DNA of 64,000 bases from an uncultured Gemmatimonadota bacterium. Its GTDB lineage: Bacteria; JAAXHH01. Location: assembly GCA_951812955.1 (NCBI GenBank), contig OX638340.1, positions 3,200,001 to 3,264,000 on the forward strand, given 5' to 3'. This document shows positions 22,559 to 64,000 of the stretch, one piece after another (the first letter of the stretch is position 1; each line of letters begins with the position of its first letter). The position numbers and the translations under genes were made by a program. The notes below the pieces were generated by a model. The model had not been told where the DNA came from, made no database searches, and worked only from the letters and a program-made list of their open reading frames with translations.

Positions 22559-24553
22559 ATGGCGACCCGGAACGGTTCCGGCAACGGGAAGGATCTCCAT
22601 ACACAACTCGACTTGCTGACGCAATCTGACGACGCGGCGGGCGCCGGGTCCAGGAACGGAAACGGACCGCGCGACGGAGGTGCGCCTGAGAACGGAAACG
22701 TTGTCGAGGCAGACAGCGGTGCGCGGTCTGCCGGGGACGGTGGAACACCAGCCGCTGCAGACGCCGCCGTCTACGACGAAAGCAAGGTCAAGACCCTTTC
22801 GTCGCTGGAACACATCAGGCTGCGGACCGGCATGTACATCGGCCGGCTCGGCAGCGGCAGCGACCAGGAGGACGGCATCTACGTGCTCCTGAAGGAAGTG
22901 ATCGACAACGCCGTAGACGAGTTCATCATGGGGCACGGCCGGAAGATCGACGTGAACATCGAAGACAACCGCGTCCGCGTCCGCGACTTCGGCCGCGGGA
23001 TCCCCCTGGGCAAGGTCGTGGAATGCACCTCGATCATCAACACGGGGGCCAAGTACAACGACGAGGTATTCCAATTCAGCGTGGGGCTGAACGGCGTGGG
23101 CGCCAAGGCGGTCAACGCCCTTTCCGTCAATTTCAGGGTCGTGGCCTATCGTGACGGCCGCTTCGCGGAGGCGGTCTACGAGCGGGGGCGGCTGCTCGGC
23201 CAGAACGAGGGCGGTGCGGACGAACCGGACGGTACCTACGTGGAATTCCTGCCCGACGAGGAGATCTTCGGGGAATACGCTTACCAGACGGACTATGTCG
23301 AACGACGCATGTGGAACTACGCCTGCCTGAACAGCGGCCTCCGCATGATCTTCAACAAGAAGCGTTTCGTATCCCGGTACGGGCTGCTGGATTTCCTGAA
23401 GGCCGAGGTAGGGGACAACATCCTTTATGAACCCTCCTACCACAAGAGCCAGTACATCGAGTTCTCCTTCACCCACACCACCAACTACGGCGAGACGCTC
23501 TTCTCCTTCGTGAACGGCCAGTACACCGCGGACGGAGGGTCCCATCAGAGCGCATTCCGAGAAGGCATACTCAAGGGCGTCAACGAGTATTTCAAGAAGA
23601 GCTACGGCGGAGTGGATGTGCGGGAGTCCATCGCGGGGGCCATCGCCATCAAGCTCAAGGATCCGATTTTCGAGTCCCAGACCAAGAACAAGCTGGGCAA
23701 TACAGAGATCAGGGGCTGGCTGGTTTCGGAAATCCGCAGCGCCGTGGTGGACTTCCTCCATAAAAACCAGGAGCCCGCCCAGAAGATCCAGGACAAGATC
23801 ACCCAGAACGAGCGCCTCCGGAAAGAACTGAACGCGGTCAAGAAGGAAGCCCGGGAGGCGGCACGGCGCATCGCCATCAAGATCCCCAACTTCAAGGACT
23901 GCAAGTACCACTTCGGCCACGCCAAATACGGCGAGGATTCCTCCATCTTCATCACCGAGGGGCCGTCGGCCGCCGGTTCGATGGTTTCGGCGCGGGACCC
24001 GCTGACCCAGGCGATATTCGGGTTGAAGGGCGTGCCGCTGAACGTTTTCTCCCGCACCCGGGCGGCCATTTACAAGAATGAAGAGCTGTACAACCTCATG
24101 ATGGCCCTCGGCATCGAGGACGGGATGTCCAACCTGCGTTTCAACAAGGTAATCATCGCGACGGACGCCGACTACGACGGCTACCACATACGAAACCTCC
24201 TGATGACCTTCTTCCTGAGCTACTTCGAGGATCTGGTGCTCGCCGGCCACGTCCACATCCTGGAAACGCCGCTCTTCCGGGTCCGCAACACGAAGGAAAC
24301 CGTTTACTGCTACAGCGAGAAGGAACGCAACGCCGCCCTCGATCGTATCCGGAGCGCCGAGGTGACCCGGTTCAAGGGCCTGGGCGAGATCTCGCCGGGA
24401 GAGTTCGGCCAGTTCATCGGTTCCGACATGCGGCTCGTGAAGGTCAACGTCCGTTCCATCCACAGCATACCGGACACCCTCACCTTCTACATGGGCAAGA
24501 ACACGCCCGAGCGCAGGGATTACATCGTGGAAAACCTGCTGGACGAAGTATAG
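22559..24553 (+). CDS. Type IIA topoisomerase ATPase subunit (divergent ParE/GyrB-like; FCB-type topoisomerase IV B subunit) with about 85-aa low-complexity N-terminal extension
   Basis: LEHIRLRTGMYIGRLGSG...GIYVLLKEVIDNAVDEF (GHKL ATPase N-box), GRGIPLGKV, and a TOPRIM region (EGPSAAGS, DADYDGYHI). The minus-strand 1326-aa track ORF 22496..26476 is an antisense shadow of this gene and the next. Confidence 0.8.
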   Translation: MATRNGSGNGKDLHTQLDLLTQSDDAAGAGSRNGNGPRDGGAPENGNVVEADSGARSAGDGGTPAAADAAVYDESKVKTLSSLEHIRLRTGMYIGRLGSGSDQEDGIYVLLKEVIDNAVDEFIMGHGRKIDVNIEDNRVRVRDFGRGIPLGKVVECTSIINTGAKYNDEVFQFSVGLNGVGAKAVNALSVNFRVVAYRDGRFAEAVYERGRLLGQNEGGADEPDGTYVEFLPDEEIFGEYAYQTDYVERRMWNYACLNSGLRMIFNKKRFVSRYGLLDFLKAEVGDNILYEPSYHKSQYIEFSFTHTTNYGETLFSFVNGQYTADGGSHQSAFREGILKGVNEYFKKSYGGVDVRESIAGAIAIKLKDPIFESQTKNKLGNTEIRGWLVSEIRSAVVDFLHKNQEPAQKIQDKITQNERLRKELNAVKKEAREAARRIAIKIPNFKDCKYHFGHAKYGEDSSIFITEGPSAAGSMVSARDPLTQAIFGLKGVPLNVFSRTRAAIYKNEELYNLMMALGIEDGMSNLRFNKVIIATDADYDGYHIRNLLMTFFLSYFEDLVLAGHVHILETPLFRVRNTKETVYCYSEKERNAALDRIRSAEVTRFKGLGEISPGEFGQFIGSDMRLVKVNVRSIHSIPDTLTFYMGKNTPERRDYIVENLLDEV

Positions 24554-40059: not shown

Positions 40060-42834
40060 ATGCGACTGGCAGGCATTTTGCTCGCCTTGATCATGACGGC
40101 GATCCCGGCGGCGGCACAGGAGACGGGCAGTCTGGGCGGCAGGATCGTATCGGACAGCGGAGAGTTTCTCTTCGGAGCCACCGTCGTGGTCAAAAGTCCC
40201 GCGATCGATGGGTTGCGGGGCTCGACGAGCGATGACAGGGGAATGTACCGCGTAGACGGACTTCCCGCCGGGGTGTACGAGGTCTCCGTTACTTTCCTGG
40301 GTTACGAGTCGTTTACCACGACCGGGGTCATGGTTCGCGGCGGTGCGCGCACGGCAAGGGATTTCGTGCTGGCCGCTTCGGTGCTCGTGGGCCAGGAGGT
40401 CGTGGTCTCGGCCTCCCGGAAGCGTGAAAAGGCCCTGGACGCTCCGGCGTCCGTCGAAGTGATCGAAATGCGGGACATCAAGGATTCCCAGGCGCTGGCC
40501 GTCAATGAACACATCAAGGACCTCAGCGGCGTCGATTACGCGAAGACGGGCGTCGTACAGGCCAGCACCGTGATCCGGGGATTCAACAAGGCGATATCGG
40601 GTCTCCTGCTTACCATGGTGGACAACCGGATCGCGCGGATCCCGTCGTTGCGTATCAACTCCTTTCAGGTCATTCCCATCACCAGCGAGGACATCGAACG
40701 CATCGAGATCGTCCGGGGCCCGGGTTCGGCGCTTTACGGTCCCAACAGCTCAAACGGCGTGATGCACATCATTTCGCGCTCCCCATTCGGGTCGGAGGGT
40801 AACTTCGTATCCCTTTCCGGGGGAGAACGCAGCCTGCGCAAGGCCTCCTTCCGCCATGCCAGCAGCGTCAATGACAAGATCGGACTCAAGATCTCCGGCA
40901 AGTACCTGAAGGCCCGGGACTGGGAATTCCACGATCCGGAGGAAATCGTGCCGCGGGATTTCGGTATCCAAGGCCAGTACGGAGAGATCAGGCTCGACTT
41001 GCGGCCTACGGAAGAACTGACGTTCATCACATCGGCCGGGTACTCCAAAAGCAGCAGCATCCAGATGACGGGACAGGGTTCGGCACAGGGCAAAGACTGG
41101 CTGTATACACATCTCCAGGGCCGCATGCAGTACAAGGGCTGGTTCGGCCAGTTCTTCTACAACAAGAGCGATGCGGGAGAAACCAGGCTGCTTCGCACCG
41201 ATGAAAGCATCGTGGACAAGTCGTCGCTGACGGTCATGCAGTTGCAGCACACCAGGGACATCGGCCAGCGCCAGCAGTTCGTCTACGGGGTGGACCTGCT
41301 GCTCACCCGTCCCCGGACCGAGGGGACCATTCACGGCGACAACGAGGACGATGACGAGACCAATGAATTCGGGGTTTACCTGCAGAGCGAGACCAGGTTT
41401 ACCGACCAGGTGAGCCTGATGCTGGCCGGCCGCCTGGACGAGCACAACAGGCTCGATAACGTTGTATTCTCGCCCAGGGCGGCGCTGGTACTCAAGCCCA
41501 ATCCGGAAAGCACCTTCAGATTCACCTATAACCGGGCGTTCAACACGCCGACGGTGACGTCGTTCTCGCTGGACTTGAAGGCGGTCAACGATGCCTTTGG
41601 TTTCGGCGCGCTTTTCGGCGACCAGGGCCTGGGTCCCGACAACACCATCGACATCCGGTCCTACGGCGCGGCCAACGCCTTCACATTCCGCCGGGACGAA
41701 GCCGGCCTCCCCATGTACCGGTCTCCTTTCGCCACGGTTTCCGGGCTATCGAGGGATACCTTCCTGCGTCTCGATGATCCGGTCGCGACCAACATGCTGT
41801 GGGGTGCGGCAAGGGAACTGTTCGTCACTGAGATGGTCAAGCAACTGGGTGAGGACAGCGGGGGCATCGTAACGCCGGAACTGGCCGCGGAGTTCACCAA
41901 CGTGATCCCTGTGCAGCTCTCGGGACTGAGGAACAGCCTTGGGCTGCTCAGTCCTGAAACGGAAGCCTTTATTCCTCTGGACGCATCATCCGTCCAGGAC
42001 TTAGACAAGATACGCCCGACCATCACGCAGACCTTTGAGGTCGGATACAAGGGCGTGATCAAGAACAAACTGGTTCTGGCAGCCGATTTCTACCGCACGC
42101 AGATGACCGACTATACCCTGCCTCTATGGATTTTCACGCCTTCCGTGTTTCTCGACGCCGAGTCTGTCCGAACCGCACTGAGACAGGGTATCGACGACTA
42201 TCTGGCCGCCCCCGAGAACGCGCTGCTTGCCAGTCTGATCGTTCTGCTCGACCAACCGGGTCTCGGCGGCAACGGGAACGGCGACCACGGGGATGAAATC
42301 AACGGATACATCGATCAGATCGCGGACGGCGCCGCGATGATCCCCTTCGGAACCATCACGCCGGAGCAGGTCTCCGATCCCACGGCGGTGGCGTTGACTT
42401 ACCGGAATTTCGGCGACGTCACGGTCTACGGCGCCGACATGGGGTTTTCCTATTTCCCCAACAGGTCCTGGAACATCACGGGCAGCTACTCCTTCATCAA
42501 CCAGAACCTGTTCGAGAACGTGGAAAGCCTCGGCGACGTTCCCCTCAACGCGCCGAAGCACAAGTTCAGCGGAGGCGTTACGTTCCGGCCGGCCAAATGG
42601 CCCCTGACTCTGGGTGGCAAGCTCAGTTACCGGGGCCCCTTCCCCATGCTGGACGGCGTGTACGGAGGGCCGATCGACTCCTATACGCTATTCGATGTAA
42701 ACGCCGCGTACGAGTTCGCGCCCCTTACCATCAGCGTGGAAGCCAGCAACCTTTTAAACAACCAATACCGTTCCTTCATCGGCGCGCCTGAAATCGGCCG
42801 GTTGCTTTCCGCCGGCGTGGCCGTACGTTTCTGA
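40060..42834 (+). CDS. TonB-dependent outer-membrane receptor, tandem paralogue of 37056..39890
   Basis: Same architecture and collinear sequence (AQETGSLGGRI...GVYEVSVTFLGYES...DAPASVEVIE...VIRGFN...AGVAVRF). Confidence 0.8.
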   Translation: MRLAGILLALIMTAIPAAAQETGSLGGRIVSDSGEFLFGATVVVKSPAIDGLRGSTSDDRGMYRVDGLPAGVYEVSVTFLGYESFTTTGVMVRGGARTARDFVLAASVLVGQEVVVSASRKREKALDAPASVEVIEMRDIKDSQALAVNEHIKDLSGVDYAKTGVVQASTVIRGFNKAISGLLLTMVDNRIARIPSLRINSFQVIPITSEDIERIEIVRGPGSALYGPNSSNGVMHIISRSPFGSEGNFVSLSGGERSLRKASFRHASSVNDKIGLKISGKYLKARDWEFHDPEEIVPRDFGIQGQYGEIRLDLRPTEELTFITSAGYSKSSSIQMTGQGSAQGKDWLYTHLQGRMQYKGWFGQFFYNKSDAGETRLLRTDESIVDKSSLTVMQLQHTRDIGQRQQFVYGVDLLLTRPRTEGTIHGDNEDDDETNEFGVYLQSETRFTDQVSLMLAGRLDEHNRLDNVVFSPRAALVLKPNPESTFRFTYNRAFNTPTVTSFSLDLKAVNDAFGFGALFGDQGLGPDNTIDIRSYGAANAFTFRRDEAGLPMYRSPFATVSGLSRDTFLRLDDPVATNMLWGAARELFVTEMVKQLGEDSGGIVTPELAAEFTNVIPVQLSGLRNSLGLLSPETEAFIPLDASSVQDLDKIRPTITQTFEVGYKGVIKNKLVLAADFYRTQMTDYTLPLWIFTPSVFLDAESVRTALRQGIDDYLAAPENALLASLIVLLDQPGLGGNGNGDHGDEINGYIDQIADGAAMIPFGTITPEQVSDPTAVALTYRNFGDVTVYGADMGFSYFPNRSWNITGSYSFINQNLFENVESLGDVPLNAPKHKFSGGVTFRPAKWPLTLGGKLSYRGPFPMLDGVYGGPIDSYTLFDVNAAYEFAPLTISVEASNLLNNQYRSFIGAPEIGRLLSAGVAVRF

Positions 42835-42977
42835 AAGATCCCCACCGAGCGGGTTGTTAACCTTTTGAACACGGACAGCCGTTTATGACGGCGGACGCTT
42901 CCGGCGCCCGCTCTTTGCCTTTCCGCGCGGCGCGGGTACCTGCCTCGTCCATAAAATCGAAACTTTGTCCGGGGGTT

Positions 42978-43019
42978 TTTCGTGCAATCGAGTATGGACT
43001 TTCGTGCAATCGAGTATGG
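42978..43019. repeat. Tandem 22-bp direct repeat (tttcgtgcaatcgagtatgg x2), putative operator, upstream of the promoter of the large outer-membrane gene
   Basis: Two identical 20-nt cores separated by 2 nt. Confidence 0.7.
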
Positions 43020-43080
43020 GCTTGTTCCGGGCGGGCATGTTCCGGTGCGCCGAACGGTTCCCTGAAGGTCCAATATTGGC

Positions 43081-43109
43081 TTGACACCAAGTGCGGCTTC
43101 CCGTAAGAT
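43081..43109 (+). promoter_or_regulatory. Near-consensus sigma70-type promoter (TTGACA-17 nt-TAAGAT), followed by RBS AAGGAG and the ATG at 43135
   Basis: ttgacaccaagtgcggcttcccgtaagat. Confidence 0.45.
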
Positions 43110-43134
43110 GTGTCCATCTTCAAGGAGACTGAAA

Positions 43135-46100
43135 ATGCCACATAGGTTGCGGTTTATTCTGGCGTTCCTGTGCCTGCTGGCCATGCCTGCGGCAGCGTTC
43201 GCCCAGGGGGATTACTTCGGGCGGAACAAGGTCCAATACCGCGACTTCAAGTGGGAAATCATCTCCACGCCCCACTTCGAAATCTACTTCTACCAGGGAG
43301 AGGAAGAGGCGGCCTACGATGCCGCCCGGATGGCGGAACGGTCCTATAACCGTCTGAGCCGCATACTGCAGCACAGGTTTAGCGACAAGATCCCAATCAT
43401 CCTGTACGCCTCCCATACCGATTTCCAGCAGACCAACGTCCTGCCGGGCTTCATCAGCGAGGGCACCGGCGGCGTGACGGAATTCAACAAGAACCGCATA
43501 CTGCTGCCCTTCACGGGATCGTACGCGGAACTGGAGCACGTACTCACCCACGAACTCGTTCACGCCTTCCAGGGTGACGCGATCTACGGCGCCGGTCCCG
43601 GCGTCTCCATCCTGAATCCCATGGCCTTCATCGCCCCGCTGTGGTTCATGGAGGGCATGGCGGAGTACCTGTCCCTTGGCCGAATCGACGCCTATACCCA
43701 CATGTGGCTGCGCGACGCGGCGCTGCAGGGATACCTCCCAGCGTCCATCCCCGCCATGGACTACAGTTTCGGCGTCTACCGGTTCGGCCAGGCGCTCTTC
43801 GCCTACATCGGCGAACGGTACGGAGATCGCAAGATCGGCGAGATTCTCCGCAAGACCGGCCGCCTGCGAAACGTGAACGAAGCCTTCCGTTCGTCCATCG
43901 GTAAGGATATCGAGAAGCTTTCCGACGAATGGAACGAGCACGTGCGCCAGACCTACCTGCCACAGATCAAGGATTACGAAAAGCCGCAGGCCTTTGCCCG
44001 GCAACTGACCGACGTCAGGGAATCCCGGGCGGGTATACATCTCGCCCCGGCGATTTCGCCGCGTGGAGACAAGCTGGTTTTCATCTCAAATAAAAGCCTG
44101 TACAACGATATCTACCTGGCCTCCGCCATCAACGGCGAGGTGATCTCCAAGCTGGTCGAGGGCGAACGCTCGGCCGATTTCGAGTCCCTCCGGTTTTTCT
44201 CCACGTCCATTTCCTGGTCGCCCGATGAGCAGTACATCGCCTTTCCGGCCAAGGTGGGGGCGCGGGACGCCTTGTATGTCATGGACGTGAGGAAGAGGAA
44301 GGTCGTCCGGCGCATCAAGGTCGATCTCGACGGCGCCACGTCGCCGAGTTGGTCGCCCGACGGCAGCCAGCTGGTCTTCGTCGGCCTGCAGGGCGGACAG
44401 TCGGACCTGTACGTGATAGACGCCACGGGAGGGAACCTGCGCGCCCTGACCCAGGACCGGTACACCGATCGTGATCCCGTGTGGTCGCCCGACGGCAGCC
44501 AGATCGCTTTTTCCACGGACCGGGGCGACGTGACCAATTTCCGGACGCTCACTTTCGGTTATCAGCAATTGGCGGTATACGACCTGGCCACGGGGGAAGT
44601 CGATAAGATCCCCGACCAGATCGGAAAAAGCATCTCGCCTCAATGGTCCGCCGATGGCGAGAAGATCGCCTTCATATCGGACCGCACCGGTATTTCCAAT
44701 ATTTTTATTCGGGACATGAAATCAGGCGAGACCTACCAGATTACCAACATCCTCACCGGGGTGACCAACGTTACGGCCGCGGGTCCCGCCATAAGCTGGG
44801 CGCAGAAGGCTGACCGGCTGGTTTTTTCTTCCCTGTCCTGGGGCGGATTCGACCTGTTCTCCATCAGCGATCCGGTGTCGCTGATGAAAGAGCCCTACGA
44901 TCACGCAAAATCGGCGACGCCAGGCGCCTCTCCCGATGCAGCGCAACTGGCCCCTCCGCTCAGGACCGAACCTTCGGAAGAAACCGCCGACGGCGAGGAC
45001 GGCGATGGTACATCGCTGGACCCGGAAGTGGCAATCGACGGTATCGAGTCCGCGTCACCGGACTCAGACGCCGACTCCGACACGAGTCAGTCGATTTCAG
45101 CGCAGGACGACGAGAAGGTCACCGAGGAGAAGGTTACCGAGGAGAAGGATACCGAGGAGAAGGTCACCGAGGGGAAGGTTACCACGATCCAGACCGTACT
45201 TACGGAATCTCCCGATACGACGTCCACCACGAATGAAACCACACCGCGGGAGGAGCCGGAGGAGACAGGAAGTTCCGATCTTCTGCAGCAGCCGGAGTTT
45301 CCTTTCGGTCCCGTCACCAGAGGAATCGGGCCGGGTGGCGAATTGCCGGATACTACCGCATGGATCGACGGCACCTTCACGAAGAAGAAATACTCCCCCG
45401 ACTTCGGCCTCGACTATATCGGCGGGAATGCGGGTTACGCCACGAACGTCGGTCTGGTGGGAAGTTCCCTTCTTTCCTTCAGCGATATCCTGAATAACCA
45501 CAAGATTCTGGTGGGAGCCAACGTATTCGGTTCCCTGACGGACGCGAACCTGCTGCTTCAGTACACCAACCTGACTCGGCGCGTCAACTGGAGCGTGGCG
45601 GCTTTTCAGTACAGCTATGATCTGTTCTACAACTACCAGAGCCCCATCCTTACCCAGGTTACGACCCAGATCAATCGCGGCGTGCATCTCTTCGTAAGCC
45701 GGCCTTTCAGCAAGTTCAGCCGCTTGGAACTGGGTATTCAGGGGGTGCACAGGTCCCGTGAGCTGGTGGATGTGAGTTTCAATTACTTCGGCATCCGCCG
45801 GAACCGGCGCGGGAGCCTGGGCAGCGTGAATTTCGTGCAGCCCACCGCCGCCCTGGTCACCGATCACACGCTCTATGGCGTTACCGGACCGATCGCCGGC
45901 GCCCGGGGCCGCATCGAAATAACCCCGACTTTCGGCGAACTCCAGTACACGCGCGCCTTCATCGATTACCGAACGTACATCAACGTAATGCAGCGGTACG
46001 CCTTTGCCTTTCGCCTGTTCGGACTGGCCAGCGAGGGGCGCGACCAGGAACTCTTTCCCTTTGGCGGGCCCTATGATTTTCGTGGCGCCAACTACTGGTC

Positions 46101-46602
46101 CGTCTGGGGGAGCAAGGTCGCGATGGTCAACGCGGAGTTCCGTTTTCCTTTAGTCGATGTGCTGGCCATGGGGTGGCCGCTGCCGCTGGTCTTCCAACAG
46201 ATCCGGGGCTCGTTGTTCATCGACGCAGGCAGTGCTTGGGACCAGAACACAAGCGCCGTGCAGGCCAATCAGTATGCGGGCTATCCCAATGTGGGAGACT
46301 TCGTCGACGGGTCGCTGATGCGGGACAACGGGCTGGGGCCCGGCATGATGGAAGAACTGTCGGGCAGTCCGGTCGCCGTGGCCTACGGCATCGGTGCGCG
46401 GGCGCGTGTGGGTTTCCTGATACTGAAGTTTGATATAGCCCGTCAGTTCGACCTCGGTAAACGGCCCTCCTGGTACAACAACGAGAACCTTCCCACTGTG
46501 CCCAGGGGACTGGAGTCCGAGTTTCCAGGCACGCGTTCGTACCGTCTGAGGAATGCGCTGAACGATACCCAGTTCTTCTTCACGATCGGCGCCGATTTCT
46601 AG
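43135..46602 (+). CDS. Large outer-membrane fusion protein: N-terminal HExxH (zincin/peptidase-MA-like) region, PD40/TolB-like beta-propeller repeats, acidic (EEKVT)n linker, C-terminal Omp85/BamA-like beta-barrel
   Basis: Signal peptide MPHRLRFILAFLCLLAMPAAAFAQ. HELVHAF zincin motif. Repeated SPDGSQLVF / SPDGSQIAF / SADGEKIAF PD40 blades. Tandem repeat EEKVTEEKDTEEKVTEGKV. C-terminal GSLFIDAGSAWD...FFFTIGADF resembles BamA-family barrel ends. Confidence 0.55.
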   Translation: MPHRLRFILAFLCLLAMPAAAFAQGDYFGRNKVQYRDFKWEIISTPHFEIYFYQGEEEAAYDAARMAERSYNRLSRILQHRFSDKIPIILYASHTDFQQTNVLPGFISEGTGGVTEFNKNRILLPFTGSYAELEHVLTHELVHAFQGDAIYGAGPGVSILNPMAFIAPLWFMEGMAEYLSLGRIDAYTHMWLRDAALQGYLPASIPAMDYSFGVYRFGQALFAYIGERYGDRKIGEILRKTGRLRNVNEAFRSSIGKDIEKLSDEWNEHVRQTYLPQIKDYEKPQAFARQLTDVRESRAGIHLAPAISPRGDKLVFISNKSLYNDIYLASAINGEVISKLVEGERSADFESLRFFSTSISWSPDEQYIAFPAKVGARDALYVMDVRKRKVVRRIKVDLDGATSPSWSPDGSQLVFVGLQGGQSDLYVIDATGGNLRALTQDRYTDRDPVWSPDGSQIAFSTDRGDVTNFRTLTFGYQQLAVYDLATGEVDKIPDQIGKSISPQWSADGEKIAFISDRTGISNIFIRDMKSGETYQITNILTGVTNVTAAGPAISWAQKADRLVFSSLSWGGFDLFSISDPVSLMKEPYDHAKSATPGASPDAAQLAPPLRTEPSEETADGEDGDGTSLDPEVAIDGIESASPDSDADSDTSQSISAQDDEKVTEEKVTEEKDTEEKVTEGKVTTIQTVLTESPDTTSTTNETTPREEPEETGSSDLLQQPEFPFGPVTRGIGPGGELPDTTAWIDGTFTKKKYSPDFGLDYIGGNAGYATNVGLVGSSLLSFSDILNNHKILVGANVFGSLTDANLLLQYTNLTRRVNWSVAAFQYSYDLFYNYQSPILTQVTTQINRGVHLFVSRPFSKFSRLELGIQGVHRSRELVDVSFNYFGIRRNRRGSLGSVNFVQPTAALVTDHTLYGVTGPIAGARGRIEITPTFGELQYTRAFIDYRTYINVMQRYAFAFRLFGLASEGRDQELFPFGGPYDFRGANYWSVWGSKVAMVNAEFRFPLVDVLAMGWPLPLVFQQIRGSLFIDAGSAWDQNTSAVQANQYAGYPNVGDFVDGSLMRDNGLGPGMMEELSGSPVAVAYGIGARARVGFLILKFDIARQFDLGKRPSWYNNENLPTVPRGLESEFPGTRSYRLRNALNDTQFFFTIGADF

Positions 46603-57706: not shown

Positions 57707-58459
57707 CTATTCGTGTTTCCGGTTGATGAGGCCGGCCGCGTAACCGGCGTTGAACCCGCCGTCGATATTCACCACCGTAACGCCCGAAGCGCAGCTGTTC
57801 AGCATGGCCAGGAGCGCTGCCAGCCCATTGAAACTGGCGCCATACCCGACGCTGGTCGGTACGGCTATCACCGGTCTGGAGACCATTCCGCCGACCACGC
57901 TGGGCAGGGCGCCCTCCATACCCGCCGCGACGACGAGCACCGATGCGTTCATGATGGCCTCATGGTGGGAAAGGAGCCGGTGGATGCCGGCCACGCCGAC
58001 GTCGTAGAGACACTCGACCCGATTGCCCAGTACCCGGGCCGTAACCGCGGCTTCTTCGGCCACCGGGATATCGCTCGTGCCCGCCGAGACGACCAGCACC
58101 TCCCCGATGCCCAGGTCCCGCCAGGAGTCCTGGACCACGATCGTCCGGGCCGCCTCGTGGTACTCCGCGCCGGGACACCGCGCCGCCACGGCGTCGTACA
58201 TGGCCGGAGTCGCCCGGGTGGCGAGCAGGTCGCTCCCAGACGCGACAATGCGTTCCGCGATACCGGCCACCTGGCCGTCGGTCTTCCCCGTGCAGAAGAT
58301 CACCTCGGGAAACCCGCACCGCATCGCCCTGTGGTGGTCCACCCGCGCGTAACCGAGATCCTCGAAGGGCAAGGACCGCAGCCTGCTCGACGCCTCGTCA
58401 ACCGACAGATCGCCGGCGCGGACCTGTTGGAGCAACTGCCTGATCTGCGATTCGTTCAT
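57707..58459 (-). CDS. larB: LarB (PurE-like pyridinium-3,5-biscarboxylic acid mononucleotide synthase)
   Basis: About 250 aa. IRQLLQQVRAGDLSVDEA, DHHRAMRCGFPEVIF, VVSAGTSDIPVAEEAAVTA, MEGALPSVVGG, VPTSVGYGASFNGLAALLAMLNSCASGVTVVNIDGGFNAG. This is collinear with the LarB family as I recall it. Confidence 0.8.
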   Translation of the reverse strand: MNESQIRQLLQQVRAGDLSVDEASSRLRSLPFEDLGYARVDHHRAMRCGFPEVIFCTGKTDGQVAGIAERIVASGSDLLATRATPAMYDAVAARCPGAEYHEAARTIVVQDSWRDLGIGEVLVVSAGTSDIPVAEEAAVTARVLGNRVECLYDVGVAGIHRLLSHHEAIMNASVLVVAAGMEGALPSVVGGMVSRPVIAVPTSVGYGASFNGLAALLAMLNSCASGVTVVNIDGGFNAGYAAGLINRKHE

Positions 58460-58526
58460 GAGTGGCTACAAGGTCTTCGGGGGCTGATTCGCTTACGGAG
58501 TTCCGCTGTGACACTCCATCTGGTCA

Positions 58527-58627
58527 TACGGTGACGCCCCTGACGGATTATATGGTGAAGGCCCTACCTGGTTGTGGTTGTACGGTGGCGCCCTTGCCTG
58601 GGTTGTGCGGTGACGCCATTGCCCCGG
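58527..58627. promoter_or_regulatory. Three imperfect about 21-bp direct repeats (tacggtgacgcccctgacgg / tacggtggcgcccttgcctgg / tgcggtgacgccattgccccgg) in the upstream region of larB
   Basis: Seen directly in the sequence. Spacing is 54 and 25 nt. Located 70-170 nt upstream of the larB start codon on the opposite strand. Confidence 0.45.
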
Positions 58628-58644
58628 GCCGGCGCCTGCCGCGT

Positions 58645-60262: not shown

Positions 60263-61273
60263 ATGGCTCGATTTACCATTCTCGCGCCCGGCAATCCCGA
60301 TAATCCCGGTCCCAATCAGTATATCAGGGACGAACTGGAAACGATTGGCGCCGAGCTCAGGATACGTCCCTTCAGCACACTAGAGGAAATGCTGGAAGAG
60401 GCCCGGGACGTGGACGGCTTTACCCAGGGCGGCCTGACCTATAATCGGGAAACCGTGGAGCAACTGCCCGACCGCATACGCGTTGTGGGCGCGGGCGGGA
60501 TCGGCGTGGACTTCATCGACGTGGAAGCGGCCACGGAACGGGGGATCATCGTATACAACATCCAGGGCGTTTTCGAACGGGAGGTCGCCCAGCACGCCAT
60601 GATGCTGCTGCTTGCGTGCGCCCGCCGGCTGATGCCCATCAACCGGTCCATGATCGAAGGCACCCCCGTCAGCCGCGGCACCATTCAACCTGTATACGAG
60701 CAGACCCTCGGCCTCGTGTCCTTCGGGAATATCGGCCGGGCCATGGCGAAGATCGCCACCGGTTTCGATCTGCGTATCATTGCCTGCGATCCCTTCGTCA
60801 GCCAGGCCGCCGCCGATCCCTGGGGCGTGACGATGGTGGACCAGGAAACGCTGTTCAAGGAATCCGACTTCGTTTCGTGCCATGTACCCCTGACGCCCAG
60901 TACCCACCACATCATCGGGGAGCGGGATTTCCGGAACATGAAACCCTCCGCCTACTTCATCAACACGGGACGCGGCAAGGTCGTGGACGAAAAGGCGCTC
61001 ATCGAGGCGTTGCAGGAAGGGCGGCTCGCCGGCGCAGGGCTGGACGTGCAGGAGCAGGAGCCCCCGGCTCCGGACAACCCGCTGCGCAAGATGGATAACG
61101 TGGTCCTCACACCCCATTACGCTTCCGCGTCGGTTCGGGGTGGGATCGAGCGCGCAAGAAAAGCAGGCCAGCAACTGGTCACCATTCTCAGTGGCCGCTG
61201 GCCCGACGACGGCCTCGTAAATCCCGCCGTAAAGAAACTCGCCGCCGAAAAATGGGGCATGCCCGCAGAGTGA
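60263..61273 (+). CDS. D-isomer-specific 2-hydroxyacid dehydrogenase (NAD-binding)
   Basis: GLVSFGNIGRAMAK (GxGxxG), FINTGRGKVVDEKAL, LDVQEQEP, VLTPHYAS. Confidence 0.85.
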   Translation: MARFTILAPGNPDNPGPNQYIRDELETIGAELRIRPFSTLEEMLEEARDVDGFTQGGLTYNRETVEQLPDRIRVVGAGGIGVDFIDVEAATERGIIVYNIQGVFEREVAQHAMMLLLACARRLMPINRSMIEGTPVSRGTIQPVYEQTLGLVSFGNIGRAMAKIATGFDLRIIACDPFVSQAAADPWGVTMVDQETLFKESDFVSCHVPLTPSTHHIIGERDFRNMKPSAYFINTGRGKVVDEKALIEALQEGRLAGAGLDVQEQEPPAPDNPLRKMDNVVLTPHYASASVRGGIERARKAGQQLVTILSGRWPDDGLVNPAVKKLAAEKWGMPAE

Positions 61274-61303
61274 CCGGGTGACCGGCGAAGGCACGGATCC
61301 TCC

Positions 61304-62008
61304 ATGTTCTACGATACCGTGATTTTTGATGCGGCGGGTACCCTCGTCGGCCGGGATTCTCCGGATTTCTTCGAGGAGTTCTTCGTTGTCGCGGCCGGGG
61401 AGCTCGGGACCGAGGTGACACTGAACCAGGTGAAGGCCGCGCTTTCGAAATCCATGGAGGAACCGCGGTTCCGGCTTCGCGAAGGACGCATGAGCACGCC
61501 GGAGCAGACGCGCCGGTACTTTCTGGATCTCTACGCCCACGTGTTGAACGGAGCGGGCGTTGAGGGTGACCTGGCGCAGGGGTTACAGGCGTACTACGAC
61601 CGGTTCCAGGACGGCAGGTACCTGGACGTGTACAGCGACGTCCGGCCCACGCTGGAAGCGCTGAAGACCGGTGGCATGCGCCTCGGGGTGCTGTCGAACT
61701 GGTCGGAACACCTCGCGCTGGTCCTGGAGCGGCTCGACCTGGACCGGTACTTCTCCTTCCTCGTCGTTTCCGCCGAAGTCGGATGTGAAAAGCCCGACGA
61801 GGAGATCTTCCGCCTGGCCCTGGATCGTGCGGAAACCCCGATCGACCGCATCCTGTACATCGGAGACTACCCGGAGGAGGACATCCTGCCCGCCGAGCGT
61901 ATCGGGCTGGATGCCCTCCTCATCGATCGGTACGACAAGTACGGGCGATATCGCCTGCCCACCATCAACACATTGACGGATGTCCCCGGACTGATTGGCC
62001 TCTCATGA
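61304..62008 (+). CDS. HAD-superfamily hydrolase (subfamily IA-like)
   Basis: VIFDAAGTL (the DxxGT motif I), LGVLSN (motif II), YIGD (motif IV context). Confidence 0.75.
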   Translation: MFYDTVIFDAAGTLVGRDSPDFFEEFFVVAAGELGTEVTLNQVKAALSKSMEEPRFRLREGRMSTPEQTRRYFLDLYAHVLNGAGVEGDLAQGLQAYYDRFQDGRYLDVYSDVRPTLEALKTGGMRLGVLSNWSEHLALVLERLDLDRYFSFLVVSAEVGCEKPDEEIFRLALDRAETPIDRILYIGDYPEEDILPAERIGLDALLIDRYDKYGRYRLPTINTLTDVPGLIGLS

Positions 62009-62019
62009 GGGAAGCGTCC

Positions 62020-62138
62020 TGAACGAGTGCGTCAAGAACGAAGGTGTGTCATGAACGAAGGCGAACCATGAACGAAGACGTGGCATGAACGAGTGCAAAC
62101 CATGAACGTAGGCGAACCATGAACATAGGCGAACCATG
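62020..62138. repeat. Tandem array of 17-bp repeats (consensus catgaacgaaggcgaac; five clean copies plus one or two degenerate 5' copies). The final copy supplies the ATG start codon of the downstream oxidoreductase.
   Basis: Copies at 62050, 62067, 62084, 62101 and 62118, then catgac... at 62135 where ATG 62136 is the gene start. 17 is not a multiple of 3. Confidence 0.85.
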
Positions 62139-63377
62139 ACAGAGAAACCGATCCGCGTAGGCGTAGTGGGCGTGGGCCGCGGGAAGAGTTTCGCGCAGAC
62201 CGCGTCCGGCGCCGTGGGCATGCAGCTCGTCGCGCTGTGCGACACCTGGGAGGAGCGGTTGCAGCAGTTGGCCGGGGAACTCTCCGTCGCCGCGTACACC
62301 GATTACGACGCATTCCTCACCCACGACATGGACGCCGTCGTCCTGGCCAACTACTTCCACCAACACGCGCCGTTCGCCATCAAGGCTCTGCGGGCGGGGC
62401 GGCACGTCATGAGCGAGACGGCCTCCAACGCCACCCTGGCCGAGGGGGTGGCCCTGTGCCGGACCGTTGAGGAGACCGGCCGGATCTACATGTTGGCCGA
62501 GAACTATCCGTACACGGTCTTCAATCAGGAGATGCACCGGTTGTACGGCGAGGGGGAGATCGGCGAGGTAACCTATGCCGAGGGGGAGTACAACCACCCC
62601 ATGGCCCGGGACGACAGCCTCCGCCTGTCACCGGGATTCGACCACTGGCGGGCGTGGATTCCCTCCACCTATTACTGCACCCACGCCCTGGCTCCGCTGG
62701 TATACATCACCAATACGCGGCCGGTTGGCGTGAACGCCCTTGCCATCGCGCGGCCCGAGCGCACCCTCACGCTCAGGAGAGGAGACCCGGGGTCTGTCAT
62801 CCTCTGCCGCATGGACAATGGCGCGGTGTTTCGGATCTTCGGACTCAGTATGCCGGGCCACAGCAACTGGTACCGCGTGCACGGCGAACGGGGCGCCATG
62901 GAGATCACGCGGGGACCGGGATACTTCGGACCGGGAGAGGTGCGGGTGTGGCATGAGCCGTGGCACCTGGAACCCGGCCAGGAAGCGGAACGGGTATACC
63001 GGCCGGACTGGCCCGAACACGGCGATCTCGCCCGCGAGGCTGGGCACGGGGGTGGCGACTTCTGGACCAGTTTCCATTTTGCCCGGGCCATCCGTTCGGG
63101 CGAACAGCCCTTCCTGGACGTCTACCGCGGCGTAGCCATGTCGTCGGTGGGCATCCTGGCCTGGAAAAGCGCGCTGGAAGACGGGCGCCCCTTCGAAGTG
63201 CCCGATTTCAGGGACGAGGACGACCGTAAATCCTGGGAGAACGACCACTGGTCGCCCTGGCCCGGACATGCCGGACCGGGACAGCCGCCTCCCAGCATAC
63301 TCGGCCGTCGCGACCCGGCTCCGGAACATATCCCATACGCCCGTCGCATATGGAAGGACATGGGTTACGAGGGGTAA
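62136..63377 (+). CDS. Gfo/Idh/MocA-family NAD(P)-dependent oxidoreductase
   Basis: IRVGVVGVGRGKSF (N-terminal Rossmann GxGxxG), then ...FIEKP-like ANYFHQHA..., and a long C-terminal alpha/beta domain. Confidence 0.8.
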   Translation: MTEKPIRVGVVGVGRGKSFAQTASGAVGMQLVALCDTWEERLQQLAGELSVAAYTDYDAFLTHDMDAVVLANYFHQHAPFAIKALRAGRHVMSETASNATLAEGVALCRTVEETGRIYMLAENYPYTVFNQEMHRLYGEGEIGEVTYAEGEYNHPMARDDSLRLSPGFDHWRAWIPSTYYCTHALAPLVYITNTRPVGVNALAIARPERTLTLRRGDPGSVILCRMDNGAVFRIFGLSMPGHSNWYRVHGERGAMEITRGPGYFGPGEVRVWHEPWHLEPGQEAERVYRPDWPEHGDLAREAGHGGGDFWTSFHFARAIRSGEQPFLDVYRGVAMSSVGILAWKSALEDGRPFEVPDFRDEDDRKSWENDHWSPWPGHAGPGQPPPSILGRRDPAPEHIPYARRIWKDMGYEG

Positions 63378-63435: not shown

Positions 63436-63510
63436 GACCCCATCGTCTAGCCTGGCCAAGGACACCGCCCTTTCACGGCGGCAACACGGGTTCAAATCCC
63501 GTTGGGGTCA
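63436..63510 (+). tRNA. tRNA-Glu (anticodon UUC); CCA not encoded
   Basis: GACCCCATCGTCTAGCCTGGCCAAGGACACCGCCCTTTCACGGCGGCAACACGGGTTCAAATCCCGTTGGGGTCA. Near-identical architecture to E. coli tRNA-Glu (CGUCUAG D-arm, CCCUUUCACGG anticodon loop, GGTTCAAATCC T-loop). Perfect 7-bp acceptor stem. Confidence 0.9.
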
Positions 63511-63534
63511 TATGGAATAACCGGAAATGGCAAA

Positions 63535-63565
63535 GGGGATTGCGTGTGTGCGCAATCCCCTTTTT
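63535..63565 (+). terminator. Rho-independent terminator downstream of tRNA-Glu
   Basis: ggggattgcg-tgtgtg-cgcaatcccc hairpin followed by ttttt. Confidence 0.6.
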
Positions 63566-63608
63566 GCTTTCATGCCGTCCGGTTTGCTTTCTGTGCCGTC
63601 CGGGGGCG

Positions 63609-64000
63609 TCAGTGGACGAAAGGAACGACCCGGATGACTTCGATCGTACCTGCGGGAGTGAATTGCCAGACCGCCACGAATCCCGTGGCGAGGTCGCCGT
63701 TCTCGTCCCAGTCCAAAGGCATGGCCGCGCCTTCGTAGTTGATCAGGCCGCCGTCGGCCAAGATGCGTAACCCGTTCGCGATGCTGCTCGCCTCGGCAAT
63801 CACGAGTTCACCGGGCGGTCTGCCGATCGTTCGCAGCCGGTCCCGGATGGCCGCTCCCTCCAGGCTGCCCGCTGCCTGGGCCGCGAGGGCCAGGGCCACG
63901 GTGGCATCATAAGTCTGTTTCACATAGGGAAACGGGGGAGGGTTGCCATAGGCGCTTTTGTACCCGTTCTCCCAGGCCAGCGCCGATGGCGTGTCCTGCG
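63609..64000 (-). CDS. Periplasmic branched-chain amino-acid-type ABC substrate-binding protein (LivK-like), C-terminal part; the 5' end runs off the window
   Basis: The reverse frame is open to the window end. ...YGNPPPFPYVKQTYDATVALALAAQAAGSLEGAAIRDRL...GLINYEGAAMPLDWDENGDLATGFVAVWQF fits the type-I periplasmic binding-protein C-lobe. Confidence 0.55.
   Translation of the reverse strand, partial: QDTPSALAWENGYKSAYGNPPPFPYVKQTYDATVALALAAQAAGSLEGAAIRDRLRTIGRPPGELVIAEASSIANGLRILADGGLINYEGAAMPLDWDENGDLATGFVAVWQFTPAGTIEVIRVVPFVH

What the first reader, a model, noticed from the sequence alone, without database searches (positions are those of the whole stretch)
62020..63377. 17-bp tandem repeat array (6-7 copies) fused to the start codon of a Gfo/Idh/MocA oxidoreductase
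The HAD gene stop (62008) is followed immediately by five near-perfect 17-bp units (catgaacgWaggcgaac) plus one or two degenerate copies. The last unit provides the ATG of the oxidoreductase, so every unit contains an out-of-frame ATG followed by AAC. A unit length of 17 (not a multiple of 3) immediately abutting the start codon is the geometry of simple-sequence-repeat phase-variable promoters or leaders, where copy number changes alter promoter spacing or translation initiation. Alternatively it could be a set of iterated binding sites for a regulator. There is no room for a conventional RBS other than within the repeat itself.
Basis: seen in the sequence. Interest (0 to 1): 0.6.

Follow-up and report, generated by a model that had tools for sequence, protein, structure and literature searches.

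The report
Tandemly duplicated start site between operon genes
The 17-base repeats are real: the oxidoreductase gene's own ribosome-binding site and start codon have been copied five to seven times, each copy forms a six-codon mini-gene whose stop overlaps the next start, and copy number differs between close relatives, so this is probably a tolerated variable repeat rather than an on/off switch.

Summary
The array is real. Window 62005-62139 holds one 14-nt unit on the HAD stop codon, two degenerate units, five good 17-nt units (62050-62134) and a partial unit that is the true start (ATG 62136). Each good unit carries a weak Shine-Dalgarno-like AGG and an ATG. Because 17 = 3n-1 and each unit contains NTGA, each ATG opens a 6-codon ORF (MNEGEP*) whose TGA overlaps the next ATG.

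Relatives show the origin. Outgroups have a 9-10 nt HAD-oxidoreductase spacer. A crown clade of sponge/coral-associated MAGs has 27-141 nt built from NTGA units. The window's three nearest relatives carry different 17-nt arrays, with indels of exactly 17 or 34 nt. Two assemblies 99.7% identical differ by one unit.

The motif occurs nowhere else in the sequence sampled. No promoter, terminator, Rfam family or stable RNA fold was found there.

I conclude it is an intercistronic variable-number repeat made by slippage of the gene's translation-initiation region. It is tolerated because every copy terminates itself and no copy number can frameshift the gene. Copy number may tune translation, but an on/off switch is excluded by geometry. 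The closest analogue is the mycobacterial MIRU repeat. Interest is moderate.

The parts
61304..62008 (+). HAD-family hydrolase gene (234 aa). Its TGA stop (62006-62008) is overlapped by the ATG at 62005.
   Evidence: ORF. Pfam HAD_2/Hydrolase. Syntenic in relatives.
62005..62022 (+). First mini-ORF, ATG AGG GAA GCG TCC TGA (MREAS*). It starts on the HAD stop (ATGA) and covers the 14-nt proximal unit at 62005-62018.
   Evidence: Sequence. Chain analysis. The same unit is present in L086, L007 and L006.
62019..62054 (+). Two degenerate units (15 nt and 17 nt) that read as one 11-codon ORF if CTG is used as a start (LNECVKNEGVS*). Its TGA overlaps the ATG at 62051.
   Evidence: CTG is a poor start codon, so this link of the relay is doubtful.
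62050..62134 (+). Five well-preserved 17-nt units (starting at 62050, 62067, 62084, 62101 and 62118). Each holds an AGG-type Shine-Dalgarno remnant, a spacer and ATGAAC.
   Evidence: TRF, pattern search, sequence.
62051..62071 (+). Mini-ORF MNEGEP*. Its TGA at 62069-62071 overlaps the ATG at 62068.
62068..62088 (+). Mini-ORF MNEDVA*. Its stop overlaps the ATG at 62085.
62085..62105 (+). Mini-ORF MNECKP*. It is in frame with the oxidoreductase but closed by TGA at 62103. Its stop overlaps the ATG at 62102.
62102..62122 (+). Mini-ORF MNVGEP*. Its stop overlaps the ATG at 62119.
62119..62139 (+). Mini-ORF MNIGEP*. Its TGA at 62137-62139 overlaps the authentic ATG at 62136.
62136..63377 (+). Gfo/Idh/MocA oxidoreductase gene (413 aa), intact. 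Its start has the weakest anti-Shine-Dalgarno pairing among 22 orthologous loci.
   Evidence: Pfam. Homologues of the same length at 90-97% identity. Shine-Dalgarno energies.
63436..63563 (+). tRNA-Glu(TTC) at 63436-63510, followed by a terminator-like hairpin at 63532-63563. Together they mark the likely end of the co-directional block.

Best explanation
The array is a locus-specific, intercistronic variable-number tandem repeat.

Origin. It arose by slipped-strand duplication of the oxidoreductase's own translation-initiation region, roughly the last 9 leader bases plus ATGAACGA. The ancestral spacer already had TGAACGA twice, 17 nt apart (GTGAACGAggacgaaccATGAACGA). That gives slippage a register.

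Geometry. The unit is 17 nt (3n-1) and contains NTGA. Each copy is therefore a self-contained 6-codon cistron whose UGA overlaps the next AUG, the '-4' stop/start arrangement. TGAs spaced 17 nt apart rotate through all three frames. A ribosome arriving from HAD, or loading at any copy, is stopped and can restart at the overlapping start codon, copy by copy, until the real AUG at 62136.

Consequence. No copy number can frameshift, extend or occlude the oxidoreductase. I infer that this is why this type of duplication is tolerated and persists. Copy number keeps changing by whole units. Its effect on expression is at most quantitative, through more ribosome entry sites set against losses at each restart. 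It is not an on/off switch.

Shown: the array, its unit structure, its derivation from a single unit, copy-number change between relatives, its locus specificity in the sequence sampled, and the absence of predicted promoter, terminator or RNA structure.
Inferred: slippage as the mechanism, ribosome hand-over, the tolerance filter, and near-neutrality.
For: Anatomy
- 17-nt units with ATGA, and an unbroken chain of NTGA overlaps from the HAD stop to ATG 62136.

Derivation
- Synteny (AIRC, M19, 2-hydroxyacid dehydrogenase, HAD, Gfo) is conserved.
- Outgroups L002, L008 and L020 have 9-10 nt spacers with a plain Shine-Dalgarno sequence. L001, L012 and L022 have a single gtgaacgaggacgaacc unit before the ATG. 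The window's subclade has 5-7 units.

Dynamics
- Array indels among the window, L086, L007 and L006 are 17 or 34 nt.
- L007 and L086 differ by 4 substitutions and one 17-nt unit in 7.2 kb.
- Units within a genome resemble each other more than units at matching positions in sister genomes.

Not something else
- The motif is absent from the rest of the window and from about 150 kb of clade flanks.
- No Rfam hit.
- The RNA folds no better than shuffles (z = +1.27).
- No promoter-like or terminator-like site nearby.

General mutational habit in this clade (other tandem arrays spanning gene ends)
- 23 nt x 3.4 across the 2-hydroxyacid dehydrogenase stop in L022.
- 15 nt x 7 across the stop of the convergent binding-protein gene in L010.
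- A 25-nt array in the M19-to-LarB spacer with 1.9 copies in the window and 2.9 in L086.

Literature
- NTGA (-4) overlaps are the commonest coupled architecture, and short upstream ORFs can deliver ribosomes (PMC12548453).
- In 13 of 14 tested overlapping pairs, translation of both genes was strictly coupled (PMC6728339).
Against: - There are no expression or ribosome data, and the organism is uncultured.
- Two links of the chain in the window's clade use CTG, a poor start. A complete HAD-to-oxidoreductase relay is therefore doubtful. With ATG/GTG/TTG only, the chain breaks in the window.
- Within units, TGAAC (positions 2-6) is at least 92% conserved, but the A of ATG only 58%. Pure neutrality does not predict this. 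It could reflect a bound factor or selection on the stop.
- NTGA-unit spacers persist across all 19 crown-clade genomes, which may mean more than tolerance.
- The true start in the window has the weakest Shine-Dalgarno pairing of all 22 loci (-2.8 against -4.3 to -8.7 kcal/mol). This hints that it may depend on the upstream units.
- The single-unit difference between L007 and L086 could be assembly collapse of a 51-nt perfect repeat.
Confidence: 0.6

Rival explanations
1. The array is a selected translational relay or rheostat. Tandem mini-cistrons are maintained because they recruit ribosomes (several AGG+AUG entry sites in unstructured, purine-rich RNA) and pass them by termination-reinitiation to a start codon that has lost its own Shine-Dalgarno sequence. 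Hypermutable copy number then tunes the oxidoreductase-to-HAD ratio within the symbiont population.
For: - The true start has the weakest Shine-Dalgarno pairing of 22 loci, while the upstream units at 62051 and 62068 pair better.
- The RNA is less structured than shuffles.
- The chain reaches the start in 15 of 17 loci with a TGA stop on HAD, against 3.3 expected from shuffles.
- NTGA-unit spacers persist throughout the crown clade.
- Copy number changes between near-identical assemblies.
- Short coupled ORFs are known to deliver ribosomes (PMC12548453).
Against: - The chain property survives 68-90% of random 1-2 nt deletions in the long arrays. It is an automatic result of a 17-nt NTGA lattice, not evidence of selection.
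- The A of ATG is poorly conserved (58%), and CTG occupies several units.
- Outgroups and several crown-clade members manage with 9-41 nt spacers.
- Other gene-end arrays in the clade span stop codons and can have no relay role.
Confidence: 0.2
2. The array is a set of iterated binding sites. The conserved TGAAC (GAAC) core repeated every 17 nt would be an operator or an RNA-binding platform for a regulator of the oxidoreductase.
For: TGAAC and a few other positions (G10, C12, G13, C17) are far better conserved among 24 distinct units than position 1 or positions 14 and 16. Direct GAAC repeats are used by some DNA-binding regulators (from my own knowledge, not tested here).
Against: - The sites are absent in outgroups. 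Their number and non-core sequence turn over between sister genomes about 95% identical.
- The motif does not occur at other loci in the window or the clade flanks.
- No regulator gene lies in the conserved neighbourhood.
- A 17-nt spacing puts successive sites on different faces of the DNA helix.
- The conservation of TGA is equally explained by its role as a stop codon.
Confidence: 0.08
3. The array is a classical contingency locus, that is, on/off phase variation. Gain or loss of units would switch the oxidoreductase off and on through promoter spacing or a reading-frame change.
For: The unit length is not a multiple of 3. The tract abuts the start codon. Copy number varies between close relatives.
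Against: - The tract lies upstream of the ATG, and every unit ends in a stop that overlaps the next start. The oxidoreductase frame is therefore independent of copy number.
- No promoter-like hexamers flank or lie within the array.
- The array sits inside a conserved co-directional gene block whose outgroups have only 9-10 nt at this junction.
- Units are only about 80% alike, which lowers slippage rates compared with true contingency tracts.
Confidence: 0.07
4. The array is an assembly artefact, that is, spurious expansion of a short repeat.
For: Short-read assemblers can misjudge tandem copy number. The L007/L086 difference lies in a perfect 17-nt x 2-3 tract.
Against: - The window's units differ from one another, whereas artefacts give identical copies.
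- Homologous arrays occur in four independent assemblies, including a closed chromosome (L006, OY762445.1).
Confidence: 0.02

Closest known systems
Mycobacterial interspersed repetitive units (MIRU-VNTR; Supply et al. 1997, as summarised in PMC12548453)
   Same: Both are tandem units in spacers between co-directional genes. Each unit carries a small ORF that is coupled to the downstream gene's start with -4 (NTGA) spacing, so insertion or expansion disturbs expression little. Copy number varies between strains.
   Different: MIRUs are said to be 46-101 bp (from my own knowledge), belong to a family dispersed over many loci, and appear mobile. Here the unit is 17 nt, is derived from the downstream gene's own initiation region, and was found at one locus only. 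The bacterial phylum is also different.
Translational coupling by termination-reinitiation at NTGA overlaps, and synthetic 'bicistronic design' leaders (PMC12548453, PMC6728339)
   Same: Each unit has the canonical ATGA stop/start overlap, with a Shine-Dalgarno-like element for the next start embedded in the preceding short ORF.
   Different: Known cases couple two real genes, or one leader ORF and a gene. Here five to seven 6-codon cistrons are chained in series, some links use CTG, and none of it has been tested.
Simple-sequence contingency loci and promoter tandem-repeat copy-number variation (for example M. tuberculosis promoter repeats, PMC12817950)
   Same: A tandem tract next to a gene start whose copy number changes between very close strains.
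   Different: Those tracts lie in an ORF, between promoter elements, or duplicate whole promoters (54-58 bp units in M. tuberculosis). This tract is operon-internal, contains no predicted promoter and cannot frameshift the gene.
TAACTGA heptamer direct repeats just upstream of start codons in Beggiatoaceae, Cyanobacteria and Bacteroidetes (PMC4679880)
   Same: Short direct repeats that contain stop codons and sit within a few nucleotides of a start codon, in regions poor in canonical ribosome-binding sites. A role in translation has been proposed for them.
   Different: There, one fixed heptamer recurs at 169 repeat sets in a single genome and lacks a start codon. Here a 17-nt unit with its own ATG occurs at a single locus.

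Membership tests
Phase-variable contingency locus (simple-sequence repeat or VNTR switch) | Tandem tract of near-identical units | tested here: met
   Five units with 80% matches. Three of them (62050, 62101, 62118) differ by only 1-2 bases.
Phase-variable contingency locus (simple-sequence repeat or VNTR switch) | Copy number differs between closely related strains or within a population | tested here: inconclusive
   L007 and L086 (99.71% identical) differ by one unit. Genomes about 95% identical differ by 17- or 34-nt indels. No read-level data or same-strain replicates were available, and assembly collapse cannot be excluded for the single-unit case.
Phase-variable contingency locus (simple-sequence repeat or VNTR switch) | Tract placed so that a unit change switches expression (inside the ORF, or between the -35 and -10 promoter elements) | tested here: not met
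   The tract is upstream of the ATG, with stops in all frames. The frame of the oxidoreductase is independent of copy number. No promoter-like site was found. The position is operon-internal.
Phase-variable contingency locus (simple-sequence repeat or VNTR switch) | Reversible switching of a phenotype | not testable with these tools
   This needs cultures or reporter constructs.
MIRU-type intercistronic VNTR | Tandem units in the spacer between co-directional operon genes | tested here: met
   The array lies between HAD and the oxidoreductase in a syntenic block.
MIRU-type intercistronic VNTR | The unit carries a small ORF whose stop overlaps the downstream start (-4 spacing) | tested here: met
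   Five ATG-initiated 6-codon ORFs each end in an ATGA overlap.
MIRU-type intercistronic VNTR | The same unit family is interspersed at many loci of the genome | tested here: not met
   No other occurrence in the 64-kb window or in about 150 kb of clade flanks. Whole genomes could not be scanned, so this is not met only within the sampled sequence.
Termination-reinitiation coupling (NTGA, -4) | Overlapping stop and start codons on one transcript | tested here: met
   The ATGA overlaps are read directly. A single transcript is inferred only from the absence of predicted terminator or promoter and from synteny.
Termination-reinitiation coupling (NTGA, -4) | Downstream translation depends on upstream translation | not testable with these tools
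   This needs reporter fusions with premature stops or start-codon mutations.
Regulator-binding iterated sites | Conserved core recurring at fixed spacing, retained at the orthologous position in relatives | tested here: inconclusive
   The TGAAC core is at least 92% conserved among units. However, site number varies from 0 to 7 across relatives and the non-core sequence turns over.
Structured regulatory RNA (riboswitch, leader or attenuator) | Stable or conserved secondary structure, or a match to a known family | tested here: not met
   No Rfam match even at E up to 1. Minimum free energy is -31.4 kcal/mol against a shuffle mean of -35.8, z = +1.27.

The most novel reading that the evidence does not exclude
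The array is a naturally evolved, hypermutable 'ribosome relay'. It would be a concatemer of 6-codon mini-cistrons, each embedding the ribosome-binding site of the next and overlapping it by ATGA. Selection would keep it to load ribosomes and funnel them, from any frame, onto a start codon that has lost its own Shine-Dalgarno sequence. Gain and loss of whole units would act as a heritable, reversible dial on the oxidoreductase-to-HAD ratio in a sponge-symbiont population. More broadly, start-spanning tandem duplications with unit length 3n-1 may be a general and unrecognised way in which intercistronic spacers grow.
Probability: 0.18. Interest if true: 0.65.

Novelty: new variant of a known kind. 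Interest (0 to 1): 0.4.

Why it matters
If the structural account is right, this is a clean natural example of how a translation start can be duplicated many times without harming the gene. Only units of length 3n-1 that carry ATGA stop every upstream reading frame at or before the real start. That rule predicts which tandem duplications at gene starts should survive in genomes, and it can be tested by scanning closed genomes.

The array is also a ready-made substrate for studying serial termination-reinitiation, with five to seven consecutive -4 overlaps of 6-codon ORFs. The literature I saw describes only single junctions (PMC12548453, PMC6728339).

For annotation the practical points are these. 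The start codon is 62136, the upstream ATGs are not alternative starts, and the tract is a candidate strain-typing marker for this uncultured symbiont clade. If the array is merely tolerated junk, its value is mainly as an illustration.

Tried and rejected
- Exact-sequence look-ups of the oxidoreductase and HAD proteins found no contig, so no identical strain was available.
- The first metagenome pattern scan, with two perfect units, found nothing. The second, on the HAD 3' end, found only L086. Population-level copy-number data could not be obtained.
- Rfam at gathering and at E-value thresholds gave nothing in the array. RNA folding of either strand was no better than shuffles. I rejected a structured RNA.
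- The promoter and terminator scan found nothing within or next to the array. I rejected a promoter-spacing switch. The scan covers only sigma-70-type consensus.
- I first read the unbroken NTGA chain (15 of 17 loci against 3.3 expected) as evidence of selection. The deletion test showed that the chain is largely self-healing in any 17-nt NTGA lattice, so I downgraded it to an emergent property. My first test also accepted any NTG as a start. With ATG/GTG/TTG only, 8 of 17 reach against 2.9 expected, and the window's own chain breaks at CTG.
- I considered CsrA-type GGA sites, Hfq A-R-N repeats and GAAC-N7-GAAC LexA boxes by eye. The window's units lack GGA, do not keep an A-R-N register, and have GAAC spacings of 6 and 3 nt. 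I did not pursue them.
- A functional peptide is unlikely. The mini-ORF sequences vary freely (MNEGEP, MNEDVA, MNECKP, MNDGAP, MNKDEP).
- The 14-nt repeat at 23295-23322, which contains an ATG, lies inside a long coding ORF and is unrelated.
Full report
OBSERVATION

The repeat is real. Tandem Repeats Finder reports a period of 17 at 62050-62139 (5.3 copies, 80% matches) and a period-34 reading at 62036-62139. About 0.34 matches are expected by chance in the whole window.

Read in register, the tract is as follows:
- The HAD stop, TGA at 62006-62008.
- A 14-nt related unit, ATGAgggaagcgtc, at 62005-62018.
- Two degenerate units at 62019-62050.
- Five good units starting at 62050, 62067, 62084, 62101 and 62118.
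- A partial unit, catgaCAGAG, which is the oxidoreductase start at ATG 62136.

The degenerate copies are next to HAD, not next to the start. One upstream ATG (62085) is in frame with the gene but is closed at 62103. ATG 62136 is the true start. All 22 related loci align from residue 1 on an ATG at this position. The NAD-binding domain begins at residue 6.

ANATOMY

Each good unit has the form c-ATG-AAC-GAA-GGC-GAA-C. Because the period is 17 (3n-1) and every unit contains ATGA, each ATG opens a 6-codon ORF: MNEGEP, MNEDVA, MNECKP, MNVGEP and MNIGEP. The TGA of each ORF overlaps the next ATG.

The chain continues back to the HAD stop through MREAS* (ATG 62005) and an 11-codon ORF that would need a CTG start.

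Each unit also holds an AGG-type Shine-Dalgarno remnant 6 nt before the next ATG. Predicted pairing to the anti-Shine-Dalgarno sequence is -4.4 and -4.8 kcal/mol for the ATGs at 62051 and 62068. It is only -2.8 for the true start, the weakest among 22 orthologous loci, which range from -4.3 to -8.7.

The RNA is purine-rich and folds slightly worse than shuffles (z = +1.27). The other strand is also unremarkable. There is no Rfam match. No promoter-like or terminator-like site lies in or beside the array.

COMPARATIVE EVIDENCE

The block AIRC/LarB-like, M19 dipeptidase, 2-hydroxyacid dehydrogenase, HAD, Gfo/Idh/MocA is syntenic in relatives.

A scan of species-representative genomes returned 18 loci at 90-97% protein identity. 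They come from MAGs labelled Latescibacterota or Gemmatimonadetes. Several isolate names suggest sponge or coral hosts, which is my inference from the names. Several are closed chromosomes of 3.5-3.9 Mb.

The HAD-oxidoreductase spacer has these lengths:
- 9-10 nt in the three outgroups (L002, L008, L020).
- 27-141 nt in the 19 crown-clade loci.
- 127 nt in the window, which belongs to that crown clade.

L001, L012 and L022 have a single unit, gtgaacgaggacgaacc, before the ATG. L015 and L021 have 2-3 units. The window's nearest relatives have 5-7 units of different composition:
- L006: gaaggcgcatc and gaaggcgaacc types.
- L007 and L086: gacggcgcacc x 2-3 and aaagatgaacc x 2.

Aligned, their array differences are gaps of 17 or 34 nt.

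L086, the one metagenome contig found, is 99.71% identical to L007 over 7.2 kb. The two differ by 4 substitutions and one gap, a single extra 17-nt unit. The window is about 94-95% identical in DNA to L086, L007 and L006.

The unit begins with the same eight bases (ATGAACGA) as the oxidoreductase ORF of L006, L007, L010, L011, L015 and L021. The duplicated segment therefore spans about -9 to +8 of the start. The single-unit relatives already carry TGAACGA-like repeats 17 nt apart, which provides a slippage register. That last point is inference.

The motif is absent from the rest of the window and from about 150 kb of clade flanks.

IS THE CHAIN SELECTED?

In 15 of 17 loci whose HAD stop is TGA, the NTGA chain reaches the true start. 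Dinucleotide shuffles predict 3.3.

That test accepted any NTG as a start. With ATG/GTG/TTG only, 8 of 17 reach against 2.9 expected, and the window's chain breaks at CTG.

More importantly, 68-90% of random 1-2 nt deletions in the long arrays leave the chain intact. TGAs spaced 17 nt apart rotate through all three frames and recapture any reading frame. The chain is therefore an emergent property of the lattice and is not independent evidence of selection.

What does need explaining is the conservation pattern among 24 distinct units. TGAAC (positions 2-6) is at least 92% conserved. The A of ATG is only 58% conserved.

A WIDER HABIT OF THE CLADE

Other tandem arrays span gene ends in these genomes:
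- GTGACCGG x 2 on the 2-hydroxyacid dehydrogenase stop in the window (61270-61285). The same stop is spanned by a 23-nt x 3.4 array in L022 and by a further expansion in L014.
- A 15-nt x 7 array, 95% identical, copies the last four codons plus the stop of the convergent binding-protein gene in L010.
- A 25-nt array in the M19-to-LarB spacer has 1.9 copies in the window and 2.9 in L086.
- In a distant Latescibacterota genome (L044), a 14-nt GAGGATTGAGGATC array spans the oxidoreductase stop.

A duplication that spans a gene boundary leaves one intact ORF copy. It is therefore the kind of duplication expected to survive.

MECHANISM

My best explanation (confidence 0.6) is slipped-strand duplication of the oxidoreductase's own initiation region, which produced an intercistronic variable-number repeat. 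Only a unit of length 3n-1 carrying ATGA makes every upstream ATG terminate at or before the real start:
- A unit of 3n would add in-frame N-terminal extensions.
- A unit of 3n+1 would send the last upstream ORF across the real start in the wrong frame.

This array is therefore translationally harmless, and no copy number can frameshift the gene. Ribosomes that load at any copy, or arrive from HAD, would terminate and could restart at the overlapping AUG. NTGA overlaps are the commonest coupled architecture, and short ORFs can deliver ribosomes to a downstream gene (PMC12548453). In 13 of 14 tested overlapping pairs, translation of both genes was strictly coupled (PMC6728339).

I expect any effect of copy number to be quantitative.

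RIVALS

- Selected relay or rheostat (0.2). Favoured by the weak final Shine-Dalgarno sequence, the open RNA and persistence across the clade. Weakened, the CTG links, and relatives that do without an array.
- Regulator-binding sites (0.08). Favoured only by the TGAAC core. Weakened by absence in outgroups, turnover between sister genomes, and absence elsewhere.
- On/off phase variation (0.07). Excluded geometrically for frameshifting and unsupported for promoter spacing.
- Assembly artefact (0.02). The units are diverged, and four independent assemblies carry arrays.

COMPARISON WITH KNOWN SYSTEMS

The closest analogue is the mycobacterial MIRU-VNTR. These are tandem units between operon genes whose internal ORF is coupled at -4 to the downstream start, which is thought to minimise the impact of insertion (PMC12548453, citing Supply 1997). 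The present array shares position, coupling and variability. It fails the 'interspersed family' criterion in the sequence available, and it is much shorter and derived from the gene itself.

It also resembles three other things:
- Synthetic bicistronic leaders, except that here they are chained.
- Promoter tandem-repeat copy-number variation in M. tuberculosis (PMC12817950), but this array contains no promoter.
- The TAACTGA heptamer repeats upstream of start codons (PMC4679880), which are dispersed and lack an ATG.

I therefore class the array as a new variant of a known kind.

VERDICT

Interest is 0.4. It is a tidy and possibly instructive structure, most likely tolerated rather than functional. 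I give a probability of about 0.18 that it is a selected, tunable ribosome relay.

Noticed in passing
window 58460-58644 (minus strand), repeat at 58576-58623; L086 2696-2768: The spacer between the M19 dipeptidase stop and the LarB/AIRC-like start is 185 nt in the window, 3 nt in L001 and 81 nt in L002. It contains a roughly 25-nt tandem unit (GGCGYCACCGYAYAACC core) with 1.9 copies in the window and 2.9 copies at 95% identity in L086. This is a second variable repeat in the same gene cluster. Its function is unknown.
   Followed up: partly
window 61270-61285; L022 2151-2228; L014 junction between the 2-hydroxyacid dehydrogenase and HAD genes: GTGACCGG is duplicated across the stop codon of the 2-hydroxyacid dehydrogenase gene. 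In L022 a 23-nt unit containing the same stop (gcggagTGAgcgggt...) is repeated 3.4 times. L014 has a 112-nt expanded spacer. These are tandem duplications that span a stop codon.
   Followed up: partly
L010 4451-4555: A 15-nt unit, GCGTCAGTGGACGAA, is repeated 7.1 times at 95% identity. It copies the last four codons plus the stop codon of the convergent periplasmic-binding-protein gene, which ends at 4543 on the minus strand. The window has a single copy at about 63606-63620.
   Followed up: partly
L044 4192-4235; L041 4265-4295: In a distant Latescibacterota MAG (L044), a 14-nt unit, GAGGATTGAGGATC (x 3.1), spans the oxidoreductase stop codon and ends just before a short ATG-initiated ORF. 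It is Shine-Dalgarno-like, and its unit length is again 3n-1. In a Planctomycetota MAG (L041), CAGGATT-like heptamers (x 4.4) precede an ATG. This hints that stutters at gene boundaries are not confined to one clade.
   Followed up: no
window 58451-58460 (minus strand): The LarB/AIRC-like gene starts with CATGAACGAA (MNE...). This is the same 10-mer that opens the 17-nt units. About 0.1 such matches are expected by chance in the window, so it is probably a coincidence.
   Followed up: no
window 62051-62139: Three of the five ATG-initiated mini-ORFs in the window, and most in the relatives, end in Glu-Pro or Ala-Pro followed by UGA. From my own knowledge (not checked here), a C-terminal proline before a stop codon slows termination in E. 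coli, and very short ORFs favour peptidyl-tRNA drop-off. Either effect could influence restarting at the overlapping AUG.
   Followed up: no
window 62136-63377 and loci L024-L085: The 413-aa oxidoreductase (Pfam GFO_IDH_MocA plus a precomputed Glyco_hydro_109_C hit) is 66-80% identical across MAGs labelled Latescibacterota, Gemmatimonadota, Planctomycetota, Verrucomicrobiota, Chloroflexota, Armatimonadota, Spirochaetia and others. This is unusually high conservation across phyla and suggests horizontal spread or very strong constraint.
   Followed up: no
window 63436-63603: tRNA-Glu(TTC) lies at 63436-63510, followed by a 14-bp-stem terminator-like hairpin (63532-63563). After that comes a 21-nt x 2 direct repeat (63563-63603), just before the stop of the convergent binding-protein gene. 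L011 has a 22-nt x 3.1 array at the corresponding place (4428-4496).
   Followed up: no
window 42835-43080, repeat at 42978-43023: A 22-nt unit, TTTCGTGCAATCGAGTATGGAC, is repeated 2.1 times at 95% identity in a 246-nt gap between two long plus-strand ORFs (40060-42834 and 43081-46602). It may be an operator or promoter element.
   Followed up: no
window 62003-62597 (minus strand): All three minus-strand frames are open across the array, giving antisense ORFs of 93-182 aa, because the reverse complement of the unit has no stop codon. They overlap the 5' end of the oxidoreductase gene and are probably spurious, as is common in GC-rich DNA.
   Followed up: no
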